Below are positions 18,042 through 52,372 of a DNA stretch of 64,000 nt, piece after piece; position 1 is the stretch's first letter, and the number at the start of each line of letters is the position of its first letter. Both the position numbers and the translations under genes were made by a program. The notes beneath the pieces were generated by a model. The model saw only the letters and a list, made by a program, of their open reading frames with translations. It did no database searches and was not told the origin of the DNA. This stretch comes from Nannocystis pusilla (GTDB lineage: Bacteria; Myxococcota_A; Polyangia; Nannocystales; Nannocystaceae): NCBI RefSeq assembly GCF_051105105.1, contig NZ_CP185339.1. One strand, written 5' to 3'.

Positions 18042-20645
18042 TCAGAAGTCGATGTTGTCTTCGACGCGCAGGTCGACCGTGTTCTGCCAGCGCGGCAGCG
18101 AACCGCTGTACATCAGGGCGTACGCGGCCTGCACCTCGAGCACGCGGCGGGTGTAGTTGGCCGTCTCACGGAACGGGATCTCGGCGATGAAGACGTTGAG
18201 CTCGAGCGGGGCCGAGCTCGAGCCCTTGGCCGCCAGCCAGCGGGCGACGTTGAAGGGGCCGCCGTTGTAGCTCGCGTAGGCCAGCGCGGCCTGGCCGTGG
18301 AACTTGTGCAGCAGCTCGGCGAAGTAATAGGCCGACAGGCGCACGTTGTGCTCCTCGTCGAACAGCGCGTCGACGTCGAACGACTCGCCCAGGCGCGCCG
18401 CCAGCTGCTGGCCGGTCCACGGCATGATCTGGATGGCCCCGCGCGCGCCCGACGACGACACCACGTGCCGGCGGAACCGCGACTCGGTGTACATCAAGGC
18501 CCACAGGTGCGTCGGGTCGAAGGCGCGGGCCGTGGCCTCGCGCTCGACCGCCTCGCGGAACGCCCGCGGATGCCAGCGCGCCTTGTACGAGCCGGCCGTG
18601 GCCGGCATCAGGCGGCTGCGGCGGTACGGCTCGTCGAGCGCCCACGTCAGCGCGAACAGCCCCTCGCGCAGCGTCTCGCCGGCCCCGCGCTCGCGCACCA
18701 GCTTGCGCGCGTCCTTCGGCAGGCCGAGGCGCGGCTGCTTCCACGTCGACTTCCAGCTCAGCCCCACGACCAGGTCCTCGTGGCGCGGGACCCAGCCGCC
18801 GCGATCGAGCCCGTAGAGGCCCTCGTAGGCGTCGACCGCGACCCGCAGCTCGCGGCGCGCCTCGTCGAGCAGGCCGGCGGCGTGGAGCGCCGCGCCGCGG
18901 GCCAGCGCGGGGAAGGCCCAGCCGAACTCGCCGGCCAGCGCCTCGAAGGTCGCGCGCGTGGCCCCGAAGTCGGGCGGCGGGTTCGTCTCCGCCGGCACCG
19001 GGGCGAGCGCCGGCAGCGGCCCGGGCTCGGCGCCGATGTCGAGCAGCCGCTGGCGCGCCTGCAGGCCGTAGTAGCCGAGCGGATCCTCGGCCACGAGCTG
19101 GCGCAGCAGGCGCTCGGCCTCGCCGCGATCGGGGGTCTGCTCCTCGCCCGCGTCGCCCGTCGTCTTCGCGCCGGTGCCGGCGGCCAGCAGCGCCCGGGCG
19201 CGGAAGTAGCGGGCGGCGCGGGCCTGGTCGGCCGGCAGGCGGCGCTCCGCGCTGGCGAACGCGGTCGCGGCGGCGTCGAAGTCGCCGAGGCGGAAGTCGA
19301 GCCAGGCGTCGAGCCACAGCCCCTCTCCGCGCTGGCGCTCCTTCGCCGGCGTGCGCCCGAGCAGCTCGCGCGCCTTCTCGTAGCGGCCGCCGCGGACCGC
19401 CTGGCGGATCGCCTCCCACAGCGCCGCGCGCCCCGCCCCGCCCTTGCGACCGGCCTGCTCGGTCCAGATCGCCAGCGCCTCGTCGTAGCGCCCGGCCTTG
19501 TCGAGGCAGCGCAGCAGGTCGCCGCGGAGGTCGGCCGAGGCTGACTTTTTGTACAGGACCGAAAGGTCATCCGCGCACGCGCCGTAGTCGTGGGCGCGCG
19601 AGGCGGTCGACGCCCGCGAGCGCAACGCGACCTCTCGGACATGTCCCGGAGTTTTGGAATCTTCGACCAGGTCCGTCAGGACCTGGCGCGACAGCGTCAT
19701 GTCGCGCGAGCGGCGGGCCGCGGCCGCGCGGTCGAGCTGCTCGGCCGCGCTGTAGCGGATCGGGCGCCCGAGCTCCGCCAGCGCCGCCTCGGCGCCGACG
19801 GCCGCCTCCGTGCCGGCGCGCCAGATCGCCACGGTCCGCAGCGCCTTGACCGCGTCGGCGGTCTTGCCCTCGCGCGCGATCGCCTGCGCCCGCAGCAGCT
19901 CGAGGCCGGCGGCGTCGGGGTGCTCGGGGTAGTCGCGCAGCACCTCGGTCAGCGCCTTGACTGCCCGGCGCGCCGCCGCCGGGCCCTCGATCGCCGCCAT
20001 GGTCCGCGCCCGCGCGACTCGCATCGGCGCCGCGTTGCGCACCGGCTCGTGGTCGATCGCCCGCTCCCACGCCGCCACCGCCTGCTTGCGCAGCGCGTCG
20101 GCCTCGGCGCCCGGGGCCGACGCCGCCGCCTCGACCAGCGCCTGGGCGTACTCGTGAAGCACCACCTCGTGCGGCCACGACTTGGCCGGCCGACGCTCCG
20201 CCGCCAGCTCGGCCAGCGCCTGGACCGCTTCGGCCGGGCGCCCGAGCTCGCGGGCGGCGCGGGCCTTCGTCAGGCGCTGCACGGAGGCTTGCAGCGAACC
20301 GGCGGGCGCGGGCTCGTGAGCCAGGCGCGCGAGCGCGGCCTCGGGTTCGCCGCGCGCCAGCAAGGCCGCCGCGGAGACCTCCGCAGGCGCCTGGGGCGGC
20401 AGGGCGGCTGCCGGTGGGGCCTGGGTCCCTGCGGTCGGCGGTCGGGCGCTGAGGGGGATCTGATTGACACCCCGATGCACGCGCTCGGCTTCGGGAGTGA
20501 GCGCCGCGGGGCGACAGGCGAGCAGCAGCGCCGTGGTCGCCATGCACAGCGTCAGGGCAGACATCCGCTTCGGGTGGCTCGCCGGCGCCATGGTCCCCCT
20601 CAAACTAGCACGTCCCCCGGGACGCGCCGAGAAACCGGTCCCCAC
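18042..20645 (-). CDS. soluble lytic murein transglycosylase (Slt family) with a superhelical TPR-like N-terminal domain
   Basis: C-terminal catalytic region YTESRFRRHVVSSSGARGAIQIMPWTG...ASYNGGPFNVARW. The true start is probably downstream (MSALTLCMATTALLLAC signal). Confidence 0.85.
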   Translation of the reverse strand: MGTGFSARPGGRASLRGTMAPASHPKRMSALTLCMATTALLLACRPAALTPEAERVHRGVNQIPLSARPPTAGTQAPPAAALPPQAPAEVSAAALLARGEPEAALARLAHEPAPAGSLQASVQRLTKARAARELGRPAEAVQALAELAAERRPAKSWPHEVVLHEYAQALVEAAASAPGAEADALRKQAVAAWERAIDHEPVRNAAPMRVARARTMAAIEGPAAARRAVKALTEVLRDYPEHPDAAGLELLRAQAIAREGKTADAVKALRTVAIWRAGTEAAVGAEAALAELGRPIRYSAAEQLDRAAAARRSRDMTLSRQVLTDLVEDSKTPGHVREVALRSRASTASRAHDYGACADDLSVLYKKSASADLRGDLLRCLDKAGRYDEALAIWTEQAGRKGGAGRAALWEAIRQAVRGGRYEKARELLGRTPAKERQRGEGLWLDAWLDFRLGDFDAAATAFASAERRLPADQARAARYFRARALLAAGTGAKTTGDAGEEQTPDRGEAERLLRQLVAEDPLGYYGLQARQRLLDIGAEPGPLPALAPVPAETNPPPDFGATRATFEALAGEFGWAFPALARGAALHAAGLLDEARRELRVAVDAYEGLYGLDRGGWVPRHEDLVVGLSWKSTWKQPRLGLPKDARKLVRERGAGETLREGLFALTWALDEPYRRSRLMPATAGSYKARWHPRAFREAVEREATARAFDPTHLWALMYTESRFRRHVVSSSGARGAIQIMPWTGQQLAARLGESFDVDALFDEEHNVRLSAYYFAELLHKFHGQAALAYASYNGGPFNVARWLAAKGSSSAPLELNVFIAEIPFRETANYTRRVLEVQAAYALMYSGSLPRWQNTVDLRVEDNIDF

Positions 20646-20769
20646 CCTGGCCCGCGAAGCGCCTGTCCCCAGAGACCGGTCCGGCCTCGGAGAGGCGCGA
20701 GGACGAAGCGTACAGCCGCAGCCGCAGCGGCCTCCCCGTTCGCGCCGGAGCGCCGCGATCGATCGCCTG

Positions 20770-21260
20770 GAGTCCTGAAGATGACGAGGGCGTCACCCGC
20801 GGCTCCCCGTTCGCGCCGGCGTCCCGCGGCCGATCGGTTTCGCGGCACGGAGCCGATCCCGGCCTCGTTTCGCGCCACCGCGAAACGACGGGCGAGCACC
20901 TCTGCGAAACGAGGCCGATCCCCAGGTCGCGGCGGTCTCCCCGTTCGCGCCGCCGGATACGCCCTGGCGATGCGAGGTCGATCCCGCGGTCGCGGCGGCC
21001 TCCCCGTCCGCGCTGTGTACACAAGGCCAGGCGCTCCCGCGAAACGAGGACGCCCCTCGGTCGCGGCGGCCTCCCCGTTCGCGCTGTGGACACGACTTCG
21101 AGCGCTCCCGCGAAACGAGGACGCCCCCTGCGGTCGCGGCCTCCGTTCGCGCCGCCGAGAGTACGACCGAGCGCTCCCGCGAGACGGTCGCGGCGGCGAC
21201 CCGTTCGCGCTCCGTAGATGCAGTCGCGCGAGCGGCGGCCTCTTCGCGCCGGCGTGAATC
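20770..21260. repeat. array of ~6-7 degenerate ~70-bp tandem repeats with internal inverted repeats
   Basis: Unit gcgaaacgaggacgcccc..gtcgcggcggcctccccgttcgcgc..gagcgctccc. The segments gcgaaacgagg and ccccgttcgcgc are near reverse complements. The ORFs called here are out-of-frame artefacts. Confidence 0.7.
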
Positions 21261-21593
21261 GCTCGCGCGACGGCCGGCGCGCGAACGTCGGCGCGATCGT
21301 GGCCCGCGTCGGGCCGAGCACCAGCGCCCCGCTCTGGCCGCGGGCCTGGGGCCATGCGGCACGCGGCGCGCGAACAAGTGACAGTAGAAGCGCGCGACAT
21401 GACCCTACAGACATGTCCGAAGGGCTCCCACGAAATCGCATCAGGTCGGCCCGCCCGCGATTCACCGTAGTGGACGTGGTTGCGGTCGAATTCGCGGCGT
21501 CGACGTGGGCTCGGGCGAAAATGTGGGCCGTCCGCGTGCGGACTAAAAATGCACCGAGCGATCATGTTGCGACCGCTGTGCTCGCTTTTTCGG

Positions 21594-21628
21594 TTTGACA
21601 AGCACCATCGGCACGGACAAGAATGGAA
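21594..21628 (+). promoter_or_regulatory. candidate sigma70-type promoter (TTGACA-N17-AAGAAT)
   Basis: ggtTTGACAagcaccatcggcacggacAAGAATgg sits at the 5' edge of a lower-GC block. Confidence 0.35.
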
Positions 21629-21629
21629 G

Positions 21630-21826
21630 CGTCGGTCGGTCCTCCTCTCTGCACCCCGGTGCACGGCTGCCGGCCGCGATTCAAGCCCGAGCATCTCGGT
21701 CTTGATAAGCCGGCAGTCTTCGGTCCTTCGCGGCTGAAGGGTGTACCGTGGTGAGAGGAGGCCCGATTGAATTCGAGGTGTGTTGTTGAGGCGTGAGCGG
21801 GCACGGATGAGGACCGTGCCCGCTTT
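21630..21826 (+). ncRNA. candidate structured small RNA (~195 nt), family unknown
   Basis: A GC-poorer island in a 71% GC genome. A 9-bp long-range pairing (cctcctctc near the 5' end, gagaggagg near the 3' end) closes several local hairpins. An intrinsic terminator follows immediately. There is no plausible ORF and no downstream + strand gene. Confidence 0.4.
21788..21826 (+). terminator. Rho-independent terminator
   Basis: gagcgggcacggatgaggaccgtgcccgc followed by ttttttc. Confidence 0.7.
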
Positions 21827-21951
21827 TTTCATGCACGCGGTGGTTGTGCCTACATCGTGACCCGCGGTCCTGACCGGCTGTCACGTGGAGACTGCACCCT
21901 GCCCCGATCGCGGCGACCTGCACGGGCACAGGCCGCCGCGGGCGGGCCCGC

Positions 21952-24132
21952 TCACGGGGCCTTGAGCGTCACCGTGTAGTCGCCCGCGCCGCTGGCCGAC
22001 ACGACCTGCCAGGTGTAGTAGCCCGCGGTGCCCTGATAGGTGATGGACTCGTTGTTGGTCGGGCCCTCCGACTTGGCGACCTTGGCCCAGGCGGAGCCGT
22101 TCCACTTGTAGAGGTAGAGATCGAAGTCGGCCCCGGCCGGGCCGGCGAGACAGCCGGTGTGCGCCCCGCTCTTGCTCGTGGAGTAGTACGAGCCGCCGGG
22201 CTGGAACTGATCCTCGCCGCTGGCGCTGAGGTTGCCCTTGAAGGGCGTGCCCGAACAGGTCTCCCCGTCGCCGCCGCCGTCGCCGTCGGGGCCGCCCGGC
22301 ACGCCCACCGCGGTCCACGCGGCGTGGACCGCCGCGGTCGCCTCGGCGCCGTAAAGCTCGGTGGCCGCCTGAGCCGTCGCGTCGCGAGCGTCCTGGAAGG
22401 TCGCGTTGGAGTTGAGGTAGTTCGTCAGCGCGCGGTAGAAGATCTGCGCCGCCTTGTCGATGCCGAGCGCCGGCACCACCGTGGTCGTCTTGTTGCGCGG
22501 GTGCTTGCCCCCCTGCGACAGCAGATAGAACGCCAGGTTGGCGATGCCCGAATTGATGTGGACGCCGCCGTTGTCCTGCTGGCCGGTGTAGCGCTCCGGG
22601 TAGTAATCGTAGGACTGCCCGTCCTGGGTCGGATTGGCCATGTAGCGCATCGCGTCATTGGCCTTACCCGGGGTCCAGCAGGTCTCGGCGAGCAGCCAGG
22701 TCTTGGTCGACACGCCGTTCTGGTAGGCGTCGACGGCCGCCGCCATGATGTCCGACATCGCCTCGTTGAGCGCGCCCGACTGGTTCTGGTAGACGAGGCT
22801 GGCCTCGTACTGCGTGACCGCGTGGGTCAGCTCGTGGGCGACCACGTCGAGGTCCTGGGCGAACGGGCTGGCGTAGTAGCCGTCGCCGTCGCCGTAGACC
22901 ATCTGCTGGCCGTTCCAGAACGCGTTGACGTAGTTCTTCGAGTAATGGACGGTCGAGTGGATGGTCGCGCCGGCGGCGTCGAAGCTGTCGCGGCCGAACT
23001 TGCTCAGGTAGAAGTCGTGCGTCACGCCCGAGAGGTCGTGGGCGGCCTGGGCCACCTTGTCGTCGGTCGCGCCGCCCTCGCTGACGGCCAGCTTGCCCGG
23101 CAGCTTGGTGCCGTTGTTGGCGTCGTAGACCTTGCGGTTCTTGACGTGGTGGATCTGCGGGTGGCGGGCCACCATCTCGCCGCTCAGCGCGTCCGCGAAC
23201 ACGATGTCGCGCTGCGGCCCCTCCTCGTCCTCGTACTCGACCACCGCCTGCCAGGCCAGCCGCGGGCCGGACTCGGTCACCACGTAGACGAGCTCGGGCG
23301 CGTCGACGCTGGCCCACTCGGCGGCGAGGCGGTCCGCCACCGCCTCGATCGCCTCGTCGGGATCGAGCGTCGGCGCCAGCGGCAGCGCCTCGGCCGGGAC
23401 GACGCGGCCGGTGACCGCCTGGACCTGCCCGCTGGCCGCGTCGGCGTGGACCGTCAGCTCGCCGCCGACCACCGGCAGGTCGTGGAGGTACTGCCGGAAG
23501 CGCACGTGGACCTTGCCGAGCGAGTCGGTGTGGTGGCGGACCGCCTCGAGGTCGGTCTCGTCGCCGAGGCGGAACACCGGCGCCATGTCGGCCAGCCAGC
23601 CGCGGGCGCTCTCCCGCACGTTGCCGCCGCCGGTCAGCGTCCCGAGGTCGCCGGCGATGAAGCGCGGCACGCCGGCCTCGTCGGCCTGCACCCGGTCGAC
23701 CCGCGGCAGGCGGCCGAGCGCCTGGCTCTGCGACCACACGAACGTCGCCGTCCCGCCCGCCGAGGTCGCGGCCTTGACCATCTCGCCGTCGAGCTCGAAC
23801 GCGAAGTCGGCGGCCGCTCCGGCGGTCTGCACGCCCCAGCGCGCGCCGTGGCGGACCAGCAGGTCTTGCACGAGCGCGGGCCGCTCGTCGCCGCTGCGCA
23901 CGGATACGCGGGTGAAGTCGATCGGCCCGTCGGTCAACGCGAAGCGCACTGCCCCTTCGGACAGGTCGAGCTCGAGGACCTCGCCTGGGCCGAGCGCCGC
24001 CACGTCGTCGGCGGTGACGATGCGAGACTCGGTTTCGACGGCGATTCCCCCCTCGTGGCAGGCGGACAGCAGACAGGCGGAGACGGCAGAGACGATGACG
24101 CGACGAGCGGACATGAGACCCCCTTGGGCCAT
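21952..24132 (-). CDS. secreted M4 (thermolysin-family) zinc metalloprotease with a propeptide and a C-terminal PPC domain
   Basis: VVAHELTHAVTQYEASLVYQNQSGALNEAMSDIMAA (HExxH plus E) and GGVHINSGIANLAFY. A signal peptide and FTP/PepSY propeptide are present. The C-terminal pre-peptidase domain reads DFDLYLYKWNGSAW. Confidence 0.9.
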   Translation of the reverse strand: MAQGGLMSARRVIVSAVSACLLSACHEGGIAVETESRIVTADDVAALGPGEVLELDLSEGAVRFALTDGPIDFTRVSVRSGDERPALVQDLLVRHGARWGVQTAGAAADFAFELDGEMVKAATSAGGTATFVWSQSQALGRLPRVDRVQADEAGVPRFIAGDLGTLTGGGNVRESARGWLADMAPVFRLGDETDLEAVRHHTDSLGKVHVRFRQYLHDLPVVGGELTVHADAASGQVQAVTGRVVPAEALPLAPTLDPDEAIEAVADRLAAEWASVDAPELVYVVTESGPRLAWQAVVEYEDEEGPQRDIVFADALSGEMVARHPQIHHVKNRKVYDANNGTKLPGKLAVSEGGATDDKVAQAAHDLSGVTHDFYLSKFGRDSFDAAGATIHSTVHYSKNYVNAFWNGQQMVYGDGDGYYASPFAQDLDVVAHELTHAVTQYEASLVYQNQSGALNEAMSDIMAAAVDAYQNGVSTKTWLLAETCWTPGKANDAMRYMANPTQDGQSYDYYPERYTGQQDNGGVHINSGIANLAFYLLSQGGKHPRNKTTTVVPALGIDKAAQIFYRALTNYLNSNATFQDARDATAQAATELYGAEATAAVHAAWTAVGVPGGPDGDGGGDGETCSGTPFKGNLSASGEDQFQPGGSYYSTSKSGAHTGCLAGPAGADFDLYLYKWNGSAWAKVAKSEGPTNNESITYQGTAGYYTWQVVSASGAGDYTVTLKAP

Positions 24133-24542
24133 CGGACAGGATCTAAAGACCCTGGCCGAACGGCCATGGTGAAAAGGACATTGCCGGAGAGGCAGCCTCA
24201 GGTCAGCTCACCTGAGACCGCACCACCATAATCGTCGCGTGCTGCGCAGCGCAACCATTCGCGCGCCCCCGGATCACGACTTTGTCCGGAGAGACGACGA
24301 GCACGGAACGGCCTCACGGACGCATCCCACGCGGATGGGGACGAAAGCCCAATTACAAATTTTCCGCGGTCTGGGCAGGTTTTGGAGCTAACTACGACGT
24401 TTACCCGATCGGCGTTCGTGGCGCCGACAAGAAAATTGTAGATCAAATTACATATTCTTACTCTATTGATTAGAGCGCACCTCACCGCAATGCATGATCA
24501 ACAAACCATGCTCACAGGTCTGAGCGCAGAGGAGATCTCCTC

Positions 24543-35124: not shown

Positions 35125-35195
35125 CCGGGCATGTCCCGATCGACATGTCCTCTCTGACATGCCGATTGGAGCATGTCCCATGGGACATGACCGTG
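35125..35195. repeat. REP-like cluster between convergent genes
   Basis: gggcatgtcccgatcgacatgtcctctctgacatgccgattggagcatgtcccatgggacatgacc. Confidence 0.7.
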
Positions 35196-52287: not shown

Positions 52288-52372
52288 GGGCATGTCCGCG
52301 GGCACATGTCTGGGCAGACATGTCTCCACGAGCATGCTTCTGTGGGCATGTCCAGAAGTACATGTCCTCTCC
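52288..52372. repeat. REP-like cluster (five RCATGTCY units)
   Basis: gggcatgtccgcgggcacatgtctgggcagacatgtctccacgagcatgcttctgtgggcatgtccagaagtacatgtcctc. Confidence 0.7.

What the first reader, a model, noticed from the sequence alone, without database searches (positions are those of the whole stretch)
21594..21826. Lower-GC structured small-RNA candidate with its own promoter and intrinsic terminator
A ~230-bp block at roughly 55% GC lies in a 71% GC background. It contains a TTGACA-N17-AAGAAT promoter-like element. Downstream is a sequence with no credible ORF, in which a 9-nt 5' segment (ccuccucuc) is perfectly complementary to a 3' segment (gagaggagg). That pairing encloses several local hairpins (gcaccccggugc, cugccggc...gccggcag, ccuucgcggcugaagg). 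The block ends in a canonical GC-rich hairpin plus a U6 tract at 21788-21826. No + strand gene lies downstream, so a leader or riboswitch role is unlikely. It matches none of the housekeeping RNAs I can recognise by eye: it lacks the tmRNA tag ORF, the RNase P GGAAAGUCCGG motif and the SRP domain IV.
Basis: seen in the sequence. Interest (0 to 1): 0.6.

Follow-up and report, generated by a model that had tools for sequence, protein, structure and literature searches.

The report
New small RNA gene of Nannocystis
This is very probably a real, previously undescribed ~200-nt regulatory RNA gene with its own promoter and terminator, kept at one chromosomal spot throughout the Nannocystis group of myxobacteria.

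Summary
A sigma-70-type promoter (TTGACA-N18-AAGAAT, 21595-21624) is followed by ~199 nt with no coding signal. This RNA (about 21631-21829, + strand) folds much better than shuffles (z = -7) and ends in a 12-bp GC hairpin plus U6.

GC is 0.62, not 0.55. The spacer is 18, not 17. Two of the three "local hairpins" were mis-drawn.

No Rfam 15 family matches. Orthologues sit at the same locus, convergent with an M4 (thermolysin-like) peptidase gene, in every Nannocystis genome and related metagenome contig I could fetch: about 20 distinct sequences in six lineages.

The promoter hexamers and a 3' module are conserved: GUUGUUGAGGCG, a 3-5 nt linker, a hairpin with a GAGGA loop, then a U tract. Compensatory changes occur in the terminator stem (L106) and in sister-lineage 5' hairpins.

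Two more distant relatives keep the promoter and hairpin stem but lack the 12-mer and the GAGGA loop.

Best reading: a stand-alone trans-acting sRNA whose 3' module is the functional part. I cannot decide between base pairing, protein titration through Shine-Dalgarno-like GAGG motifs, and 3'-end overlap with the peptidase mRNA. No expression data were available. This is a new family of a known kind, of moderate interest.

The parts
21580..21594 (+). T-rich block conserved upstream of the promoter (GCTCGCTTTTT-CGGT), resembling an UP element
   Evidence: Invariant in all 8 type-A sequences (alignments A1 and A4). Sister lineages have an A/T-rich equivalent, CAATTT(T)GG.
21595..21600 (+). -35 hexamer TTGACA
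   Evidence: Found by the promoter scan. Invariant in every orthologue, 175-233 nt upstream of the hairpin.
21619..21624 (+). -10 hexamer AAGAAT (18-nt spacer)
   Evidence: CAAGAAT is invariant in all type-A lineages, and the spacer length is constant while its sequence varies.
21631..21829 (+). Predicted sRNA transcript, ~199 nt. The 5' end is inferred from the -10 position (+/-3 nt). The 3' end is the U tract.
   Evidence: MFE z = -6.97. No coding signal. No Rfam hit. Orthologues at the syntenic site.
21632..21649 (+). P1 5' strand (UCGGUCGG-U-CCUCCUCUC), which pairs with 21753-21770. Specific to core Nannocystis.
   Evidence: 16 pairs, 98% of cells paired in 8 core sequences. Absent in L007, L009, L101 and types B-E.
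21653..21752 (+). Variable 5' domain interior. P2 is 21653-21664/21741-21752. P3 is 21666-21674/21709-21717, with apical hairpin 21681-21705. P4 hairpin is 21718-21739.
   Evidence: P2 has 2 pairs with compensatory change. P4 shows G-U to G-C changes and is deleted as a unit (22 nt) in L005 and L006.
21753..21781 (+). Purine-rich segment with Shine-Dalgarno-like motifs (GAGAGGAGG ... CGAGGU). It is the P1 3' strand in this lineage. GAGGAGG(U/C)CCG is invariant in all type-A lineages.
   Evidence: GAGG is enriched in the last ~80 nt (5 copies, mononucleotide-shuffle P<0.001).
21782..21793 (+). Invariant 12-mer GUUGUUGAGGCG, the candidate seed or recognition element
   Evidence: Identical in all Nannocystis-clade orthologues. 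This includes those found without requiring it: protein-anchored loci L001-L010 and L106, and the hairpin-only genome scan. Predicted about 55-60% unpaired here.
21795..21829 (+). Intrinsic terminator. Stem is 21795-21806/21814-21825, loop AUGAGGA is 21807-21813, U6 is 21824-21829.
   Evidence: The stem is kept in 18 of 18 sequences with one compensatory C-G to G-C change in L106. GAGGA is kept in the loop in all six lineages. The hairpin is duplicated in type B.

Best explanation
This is a stand-alone small-RNA gene of Nannocystis. A strong sigma-70-type promoter (TTGACA-N18-AAGAAT) drives a ~200-nt non-coding transcript that stops at its own hairpin-plus-U6 terminator, facing the 3' end of an M4 (thermolysin-like) peptidase gene.

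The RNA has two parts. The first is a stable 5' domain that evolves quickly and is specific to each lineage; here it is a Y-shaped fold closed by CCUCCUCUC:GAGAGGAGG. The second is a 3' module kept throughout the clade: GUUGUUGAGGCG, a 3-5 nt linker, a hairpin presenting GAGGA in its loop, then a U tract.

I infer that the 3' module is the working part and that the RNA acts in trans as a riboregulator. The most likely mechanism is pairing of the G/U- and purine-rich 12-mer, and possibly the GAGGA loop, with C/U-rich sites in target RNAs. The 5' domain would mainly provide stability or lineage-specific tuning. In core Nannocystis it masks the upstream GAGGAGG motif.

Shown by comparison: the gene, its promoter, its terminator, its orthology and its conservation pattern. 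Inferred: transcription, the exact 5' end, action in trans and the pairing mechanism.

My confidence that it is a genuine sRNA gene is about 0.85. My confidence that base pairing through the 3' module is the mechanism is about 0.4-0.45.
For: Promoter:
- It is the only sigma-70-like site in 2.5 kb.
- In type A the -35, the -10 and the spacer length are invariant while 8 or more spacer positions vary.
- Other lineages keep TTGACA and a GCATA(A/C)-type -10.

Terminator:
- It is a canonical intrinsic terminator.
- It is unique in the 64-kb window and occurs once per locus.
- L106 carries a compensatory C-G to G-C change.
- The first hairpin of type B (L017) carries a G-C to A-U change.

Non-coding:
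- No frame shows a GC3 signal and no ORF has a Pfam hit.
- A 22-nt deletion and a 2-nt indel within the RNA in close relatives rule out a conserved reading frame.

Structure:
- z = -6.97 for the window RNA and -4.68 for type E.
- 98.5% of cells are paired across 8 core sequences, against 34-46% when partners are slid.
- The type-B 5' hairpin has compensatory changes.

Orthology:
- The RNA always lies next to the M4 peptidase orthologue (57-95% identity), with fadBA or SLT on the other side.

Selection:
- Between the window and L007 or L009 (SLT 72% and 67% identical), only the promoter and the 3' ~80 nt align.
- The ~50-nt core is identical in lineages whose M4 protein is 57% identical.

Stand-alone:
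- In types A, A2, B, D and E the next gene is convergent.
Against: - No transcript evidence of any kind was available.
- Covariation is thin because the most informative parts barely vary: 2 of 69 pairs in the core set and 1 of 10 in the terminator.
- Part of the apparent invariance comes from how sequences were found. The genome scan required the hairpin with GAGGA, and the metagenome scan required the 12-mer plus half the stem. Only the protein-anchored loci (L001-L010, L104-L106) are unbiased.
- The 12-mer is predicted mostly paired in types A2 and B (unpaired probability 0.11-0.17). That fits a simple open seed poorly.
- A G/U-rich seed matches very many CGCCUCGRCRRC-like sites in this high-GC DNA, so no specific target emerged.
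- Near-invariance of a terminator stem is more than a terminator or a seed needs. It hints at sequence-specific recognition by a protein.
- Two more distant relatives (L104, L105) keep the promoter and stem but lack the 12-mer and the GAGGA loop. The module is therefore a clade-level innovation on an older terminator.
Confidence: 0.5

Rival explanations
1. Protein-titrating or Shine-Dalgarno-mimic RNA. The 3' module displays several SD-like GAGG/GGA motifs, always including one in the terminator loop. These would sequester a factor that binds GGA or SD sequences, such as a CsrA-like protein or the 30S anti-SD, in the manner of CsrB or RsmY/Z.
For: - There are 4-5 GAGG and 3-4 GGA motifs in the last ~80 nt in types A, A2, B, D and E (shuffle P 0.000-0.018).
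- The GAGGA loop is the one element predicted accessible in every lineage (0.73-1.0 unpaired).
- The GAGGA hairpin is duplicated in type B.
- The type-A loop region CACGGAUGA resembles the CsrA/RsmE hairpin consensus (from memory of published SELEX and hcnA work).
- Near-invariance of the stem suggests protein recognition.
Against: - Type C has only 2 GAGG motifs.
- Only 1-2 motifs sit in hairpin loops, and the other conserved motifs are AGGU and AGGC, which lack the GGA core.
- In core Nannocystis the GAGGAGG motif is buried in an 18-bp helix.
- No Rfam Csr/Rsm model matches.
- I could not establish whether Nannocystis encodes CsrA, and the literature searches were uninformative.
Confidence: 0.18
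2. Cis-antisense or shared-terminator partner of the convergent M4 peptidase gene. The hairpin would be an old bidirectional terminator. The sRNA and the peptidase mRNA would overlap at their 3' ends, so that sRNA transcription or duplex formation controls peptidase mRNA 3'-end formation or stability.
For: - The convergent sRNA-M4 arrangement is kept in types A, A2, B, D and E and in the outgroups, with gaps of only ~85-175 nt.
- No separate minus-strand terminator is detected between the M4 stop codon and the hairpin.
- In outgroups L104 and L105 the same stem has the better U-rich tail in the M4 direction (UUGUUUGCGCCUUUUGU) and a poor one in the sRNA direction.
Against: - Type C (L020, L094, L097) has lost the M4 neighbour but keeps the promoter, the 12-mer, the GAGGA loop and the U tract unchanged.
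- In Nannocystis the M4-direction tail (UCACGCCUCAACAAC) is not U-rich.
- A terminator role does not explain an invariant loop, an invariant 12-mer or a strong dedicated promoter.
Confidence: 0.12
3. No functional RNA. The conserved pieces would be DNA-level elements, such as a protein-binding palindrome or the peptidase terminator plus a fortuitous promoter-like site. The strong fold would simply reflect GC-rich intergenic DNA.
For: - There is no expression evidence.
- The stem is a DNA palindrome that is almost invariant.
- The intergenic DNA of this clade carries other conserved DNA motifs, such as the CATGTCC arrays.
Against: - The fold is far better than dinucleotide-preserving shuffles.
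- Compensatory and G-U-tolerant changes fit RNA pairing on the + strand.
- A perfect -35, a fixed spacer, a -10 and a U6-7 tract co-occur on the same strand in about 20 sequences.
- The hairpin is a single copy in each locus.
Confidence: 0.07
4. A 5' leader or attenuator (riboswitch-like) controlling a downstream gene by termination.
For: In type C a co-oriented ORF of unknown function starts about 100 nt after the terminator.
Against: - In the window and in types A, A2, B, D and E the next gene is on the opposite strand.
- The 5' domain, which would be the sensor, is not conserved between lineages.
- No Rfam cis-regulatory family matches.
Confidence: 0.02

Closest known systems
Enterobacterial sRNAs with a 3'-located seed (ArcZ, RprA, SdsR type)
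   Same: - It has its own promoter and intrinsic terminator.
- The conserved part is the 3' ~50-80 nt, a single-stranded stretch directly upstream of the terminator.
- The 5' portion is variable and structured.
   Different: - There is no sequence or covariance-model similarity.
- The host phylum is reported to lack Hfq, at least in M. xanthus (bioRxiv 10.1101/2025.09.11.675593).
- The conserved stretch is G/U- and purine-rich with SD-like motifs, and the terminator loop itself is conserved.
- Processing to a short 3' form is unknown.
CsrB / RsmX-Y-Z family of CsrA-sequestering RNAs
   Same: - It is a stand-alone sRNA with repeated GGA/GAGG motifs, including one in the terminator loop.
- Motif density in the 3' module (3-4 GGA per ~80 nt) is comparable.
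- One lineage duplicates the motif-bearing hairpin.
   Different: - No Rfam Csr/Rsm model matches.
- Only 1-2 motifs lie in loops, and several motifs lack the GGA core.
- The rest of the RNA (~120 nt) carries none.
- A CsrA partner in Nannocystis has not been demonstrated.
- These families are known essentially from Gammaproteobacteria (my own knowledge).
Pxr sRNA of Myxococcus xanthus
   Same: It is an intergenic, multi-stem-loop sRNA of a myxobacterium, with conserved and hypervariable stem-loops. Pxr's third stem-loop is variable (my own knowledge; PMC10217877 for Pxr biology).
   Different: - There is no detectable sequence or structure similarity: nothing at E<=10 in Rfam.
- The genomic context differs. 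Pxr lies downstream of nla19, whereas this RNA lies between fadBA or SLT and an M4 peptidase.
- It belongs to a different myxobacterial class (Nannocystaceae, Polyangia).

Membership tests
Any Rfam 15 family (6S, tmRNA, RNase P, SRP, Csr/Rsm, ArcZ, retron msr, riboswitches and others) | Match to the family covariance model at or above its gathering score | tested here: not met
   There were 0 hits in the whole window and 0 hits in 8 orthologous loci of the other lineages. At E<=10 over 21300-22000 only 5 chance-level hits appeared, the best being a 21-bit miRNA model on the opposite strand.
Trans-encoded bacterial sRNA (generic kind) | Own promoter and Rho-independent terminator in an intergenic region, no ORF, and conservation of the gene in relatives | tested here: met
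   Promoter and terminator. No coding signal. About 20 orthologues with the promoter and 3' end conserved.
Trans-encoded bacterial sRNA (generic kind) | A discrete transcript is made and it regulates targets in trans | not testable with these tools
   No transcriptome data were available. Local target scans were uninformative.
3'-seed sRNAs (ArcZ/RprA/SdsR-like architecture) | Conserved single-stranded seed immediately 5' of the terminator, with a variable 5' portion | tested here: met
   The invariant 12-mer lies 3-5 nt before the hairpin and the 5' domains are unrelated between lineages. Predicted accessibility of the 12-mer varies from 0.11 to 0.61.
3'-seed sRNAs (ArcZ/RprA/SdsR-like architecture) | Hfq dependence and RNase E processing to a short 3' species | not testable with these tools
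   M. xanthus is reported to lack Hfq. The status in Nannocystis was not determined.
CsrB/Rsm-type protein sponge | Many GGA motifs, mostly in hairpin loops or single strands | tested here: inconclusive
   There are 3-4 GGA and 4-5 GAGG motifs in the last ~80 nt in five of the six lineages and 2 in type C. Only the terminator loop or loops present GGA in a loop.
CsrB/Rsm-type protein sponge | The host encodes CsrA/RsmA | not testable with these tools
Retron msr-msd RNA | Reverse-transcriptase ORF directly downstream on the same strand, with terminal a1/a2 inverted repeats conserved | tested here: not met
   The downstream gene is a convergent M4 peptidase, with SLT or fadBA upstream. The terminal inverted repeat exists only in core Nannocystis.
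Riboswitch / transcription-attenuating leader | Co-oriented regulated ORF downstream, with a conserved sensor domain | tested here: not met
   There is no + strand gene downstream in the window or in types A2, B, D and E. The 5' domain is not conserved between lineages.

The most novel reading that the evidence does not exclude
The RNA could be a Shine-Dalgarno-mimic decoy. Its conserved tail presents 4-5 GAGG motifs, always including GAGGA in the terminator loop and twice in one lineage. These would titrate a factor that binds GGA or SD sequences, such as a CsrA-like protein or the anti-SD end of 16S rRNA. In core Nannocystis the 5' CCUCCUCUC strand would act as a built-in mask for one site. 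This would be a Csr/Rsm-like sponge system invented independently in a myxobacterial lineage, in a phylum where Hfq is reportedly absent.
Probability: 0.12. Interest if true: 0.7.

Novelty: new member of a known kind. Interest (0 to 1): 0.4.

Why it matters
Riboregulation in myxobacteria is almost unexplored. Pxr is essentially the only characterised sRNA, and M. xanthus is reported to lack Hfq.

This locus offers a well-delimited sRNA family confined to one clade. It has a clear promoter and terminator, and a conservation pattern (12-mer plus GAGGA loop) that points to the nucleotides to mutate.

It is linked to genes for nutrient acquisition: a secreted M4 protease, an amino-acid permease and fatty-acid beta-oxidation. 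This suggests a testable role in predation or starvation physiology.

It could be added to Rfam as a new family. It also shows an sRNA module apparently built onto an older bidirectional terminator. Beyond that it is an ordinary kind of object.

Tried and rejected
- **Known RNA families.** Rfam at gathering score found nothing, and a permissive search of the region found only chance-level hits. The sister-lineage loci also gave nothing.
- **Paralogues or repeat element.** blastn of the region against the window, and the covariance model R1 against the window and 25 loci, found exactly one copy per locus. The hairpin is unique in 64 kb. There are no matches in viral contigs or plasmids.
- **Genome-scan false positives.** About 70 of the 81 genome-scan hits were chance hairpins in other GC-rich phyla, with no 12-mer, promoter or U tract. 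I discarded them.
- **CRISPR array or leader.** I considered this because of the upstream repeats. I rejected it because the ~71-nt units are similar throughout and there are no unique spacers.
- **Small protein.** The ORFs at 21480-21737, 21623-21754 and 20600-21832(-) have no coding signature and no Pfam hit. Indels of 22 nt and 2 nt in close relatives break them.
- **Retron.** There is no reverse transcriptase nearby.
- **Target search.** I used duplex energies against all 43 gene starts in the window, scanned 13 loci for complements of the 12-mer allowing G-U pairs, and tested the M4 5' UTRs in 7 lineages. There were many weak hits and no site at a conserved position.
- **CsrA or Hfq in Nannocystis.** Literature searches did not answer this. 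A protein search would have been swamped by unrelated CsrA clusters, so I did not run one.
- **Second M4 paralogue.** The second M4 peptidase gene of N. punicea (L103) has no such RNA beside it.

Full report
**1. What is in the sequence**

The window comes from a Nannocystis genome. The adjacent lytic transglycosylase (SLT) protein is 98% identical to that of Nannocystis sp. ILAH1.

Between the SLT/TPR gene (minus strand, start near 20588-20645) and an M4 thermolysin-like peptidase gene (minus strand, 21952-24132) lie about 1.3 kb with no coding signature. No frame shows the GC3 excess that real genes here have (0.87-0.97), and none of the ORFs has a Pfam hit.

Inside this spacer the consensus scan finds one sigma-70-type promoter, TTGACA(21595)-N18-AAGAAT(21624). 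It also finds one + strand intrinsic terminator, with a stem at 21795-21825 (12 pairs) and T6 at 21824-21829.

The ~200 nt between them fold to -112.4 kcal/mol, against -80.8 +/- 4.5 for dinucleotide shuffles (z = -6.97). The fold has these parts:
- An 18-position closing helix, 21632-21649 with 21753-21770.
- A second helix, 21653-21664 with 21741-21752.
- Two arms. One is 21666-21717, with apical hairpin 21681-21705. The other is the hairpin 21718-21739.
- A ~25-nt largely open stretch.
- The terminator.

GC is 0.62, not 0.55. The spacer is 18 nt. 'gcaccccggugc' is one strand of a helix, not a hairpin. The U tract ends at 21829.

**2. Not a known RNA**

Rfam 15 gives no hit at gathering score in the window or in eight loci of related lineages. 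A permissive scan of 21300-22000 gives only chance-level matches.

There is no second copy in the window. Nothing similar occurs in viral contigs or plasmids. Literature searches found no description of Nannocystis sRNAs.

**3. Relatives**

I collected related sequences in three ways.

- **Protein-anchored loci (unbiased).** Loci L001-L010 were fetched through the SLT protein. Loci L103-L106 were fetched through the M4 peptidase protein.
- **Genome scan for the hairpin with a GAGGA loop.** Of 81 hits, only those from Nannocystis isolates or MAGs also had the upstream 12-mer, a TTGACA promoter and a U tract. The others were chance hairpins in other GC-rich phyla.
- **Metagenome scan for the 12-mer plus half the stem.** This gave eight true hits and three chance hits.

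Together these give about 20 distinct sequences. I sorted them into six lineages by their 5' domain:
- A: core Nannocystis, including exedens, pusilla, punicea, bainbridge and radixulma
- A2: L007, L009, L101
- B: L010, L017, L023, L043, L099
- C: L020, L094, L097
- D: L092
- E: L106

They are orthologues, not paralogues. In A, A2, B, D and E the RNA gene is convergent with the orthologous M4 peptidase gene (57-95% protein identity). On its other side lies either the fadB-fadA operon (B, C, D, E) or SLT (A, A2).

In L010, SLT sits just beyond fadBA. Core Nannocystis has therefore replaced fadBA by about 1 kb of non-coding repeats. Type C has lost the M4 neighbour.

The covariance model of the 3' module finds exactly one copy per locus. 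The second M4 paralogue of N. punicea has none beside it.

**4. Conservation pattern**

Conserved elements:
- The -35 TTGACA is kept in every sequence.
- Within type A, CAAGAAT and the 18-nt spacing are invariant although the spacer sequence changes at many positions. A T-rich block just upstream is also invariant.
- Other lineages have GCATA(A/C)-type -10 regions at equivalent spacing.
- At the 3' end, every lineage has GUUGUUGAGGCG, a 3-5 nt variable linker, GCGGGCACGG-loop-CCGUGCCCGC and U5-7. The loop is always (A/U)1-3-GAGGA-(A).
- Type B carries the hairpin twice.

Variable elements:
- The 5' 100-200 nt cannot be aligned between lineages.
- Between the window and L007 or L009 (SLT 72% and 67% identical), only the promoter and the last ~80 nt give blast matches.
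A2 keeps GAGGAGGUCCG but has no CCUCCUC partner.

Caveat on ascertainment: sequences found by the two pattern scans are conserved in the pattern positions by construction. The protein-anchored loci are not, and they show the same picture.

L106 was missed by both patterns and is informative. It keeps the 12-mer and the GAGGA loop, and its stem carries a compensatory C-G to G-C change.

**5. Evidence for RNA structure**

- In the eight core sequences, 98.5% of cells are paired, against 34-46% when partners are slid by 1-3 columns. Variation is low: 2 of 69 pairs have double changes and about a dozen have G-C/G-U changes. One arm, the 22-nt hairpin 21718-21739, is deleted cleanly in two species.
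- Type B shows compensatory changes in its 5' hairpin (U-A to C-G, G-C to A-U) and in its first GAGGA hairpin (G-C to A-U).
- Type E folds with z = -4.7.

The RNA is thus structured in every lineage, but the structure of the 5' domain is not shared between lineages.

**6. Outgroups**

Two more distant genomes were examined: L104 (a Nannocystaceae MAG, M4 51% identical) and L105 (a 'Myxococcales' MAG, 53%). They have the same gene order, permease-M4-gap-fadA-fadB.

In the ~460-nt gap they have a TTGACA-N17-AA(C/G)TAT promoter on the sRNA strand and the same stem, AGCGGGCACGGCC...GGCCGUGCCCGCU. They lack the 12-mer and the GAGGA loop. The U tract is poor in the sRNA direction, and the tail is more U-rich in the M4 direction.

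The hairpin therefore looks like an old, probably bidirectional, terminator between convergent units. The Nannocystis clade appears to have built the conserved 12-mer, the GAGGA loop and a proper U tract onto it.

**7. How it most likely works**

Shown by comparison: a gene-like unit with promoter, structured non-coding body and terminator is under purifying selection at a fixed locus, and selection is concentrated on the promoter and the 3' module.

Inferred: it is transcribed from about 21631, it acts in trans, and the 3' module is the effector.

I favour base pairing through the 12-mer and its conserved 5' flank, roughly (G)AGGUUC(C)AAUC in lineages A2 and B (with partial versions in C and E), possibly helped by the GAGGA loop. 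Most stand-alone bacterial sRNAs work this way, and the layout resembles ArcZ, RprA and SdsR.

Points against a simple seed:
- The 12-mer is predicted to be paired in A2 and B. In type B it pairs with an upstream CAACA(G/A)C.
- The G/U-rich sequence matches too many sites to reveal targets.
- The stem is conserved more than a terminator needs.

Rival 1 is titration of a factor that binds SD or GGA sequences. GAGG occurs 4-5 times in the last ~80 nt in five of six lineages (P 0.000-0.018). The loop GAGGA is the only element predicted accessible everywhere. The hairpin is duplicated in type B. However, type C has only two motifs, and I could not establish whether Nannocystis has CsrA.

Rival 2 is 3'-end overlap or a shared terminator with the M4 peptidase mRNA. 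The conserved convergent linkage and the outgroup tails support it. Type C weakens it, because that lineage keeps the module without M4.

A leader role, a retron and a small protein are rejected (see the membership table).

**8. Comparison with known systems and novelty**

In architecture this is closest to the 3'-seed sRNAs. In motif content it is closest to the Csr/Rsm sponges. It is a member of neither by sequence or covariance model.

Pxr, the one well-studied myxobacterial sRNA, shows no similarity and has a different genomic context.

I classify it as a new family of a known kind: a trans-encoded sRNA restricted to the Nannocystis clade.

**9. Verdict**

- Real sRNA gene: about 0.85.
- Mechanism by base pairing through the 3' module: about 0.4-0.45.
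- Sponge: about 0.18.
- M4-linked antisense or terminator role: about 0.12.
- Interest: 0.4. This is a clean, well-bounded new sRNA family in a poorly studied phylum with an unusual conservation pattern, but not a new kind of object.

Noticed in passing
window 35130-35195, 52291-52367, 21396-21418 and about 35 other sites: The heptamer CATGTCC is strongly over-represented: 41 copies against 5.75 +/- 2.4 in shuffles. It forms arrays of 2-6 copies with a 14-bp period, mostly in intergenic DNA or at gene ends. Pairs of the form CATG-N8-14-CATGTCC occur 10 times against 0.09 expected. This looks like a binding-site array for a DNA-binding protein or a small intergenic repeat family of Nannocystis.
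   Followed up: partly
window 21376-21425: A second conserved block, AAGTGACAGT-N10-GACATG-N8-GACATGTCC-GAAGG, lies about 200 nt upstream of the sRNA promoter. Its core (AAGTGACAGT and CATGTCC) is invariant and the rest near-invariant in all type-A lineages. It is also present in L106 and, in modified form, in L104 and L105. It contains one of the CATGTCC pairs. It could be an operator for the sRNA or for the divergent SLT gene.
   Followed up: partly
window 20650-21300: About 1 kb of non-coding DNA is made of degenerate ~71-nt repeats. The motifs are GGTCGCGGCGGCCTCCCCGTTCGCGC and GCGCTCCCGCGAAACGAGGACGCC. The repeats are confined to this spacer and to the closest strains. In sister lineages the fadB-fadA operon occupies the same position.
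   Followed up: partly
window ~24133-24290, minus strand (5' UTR of the M4 peptidase gene): The ~150-nt leader of the M4 peptidase gene is conserved across lineages A and A2 and is rich in hairpins, for example GGUCUCAGGUGAGCUGACCUGAGGCUGCC and CAUGGNCGUUCGGCCAGGG. No Rfam family matches it. The true start codon is probably the AUG 18 nt downstream of 24132, preceded by AAGG(A/G)GG.
   Followed up: no
L010 ~815-800, L094, L097, L099, L043 (about 20 nt upstream of the sRNA -35): Lineages B and C carry a conserved TGGCAC-N5-CCGC, which has the GG-N10-GC spacing of sigma-54 promoters. It lies just upstream of the TTGACA, so these lineages may have dual promoters. It is absent from the window's type A.
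   Followed up: no
L023 and L043 (two contigs of one Nannocystis MAG, EsbW_18-Q3-R4-48_MAXAC.145): The same MAG holds two different type-B versions of the sRNA, so it may contain true paralogues or a mixture of strains. L023 also has a fragmented M4 gene and an A.A mismatch in its first hairpin, which suggests assembly errors.
   Followed up: no
L104 6270-6520 and L105 6265-6520 (minus strand): The outgroup intergenic RNA candidate contains three repeats of GCC(G)ACA(R)A(A)GGCGC. The last one lies where the Nannocystis clade has GUUGUUGAGGCGC. The AGGCGC core may therefore be the oldest part of the motif.
   Followed up: no
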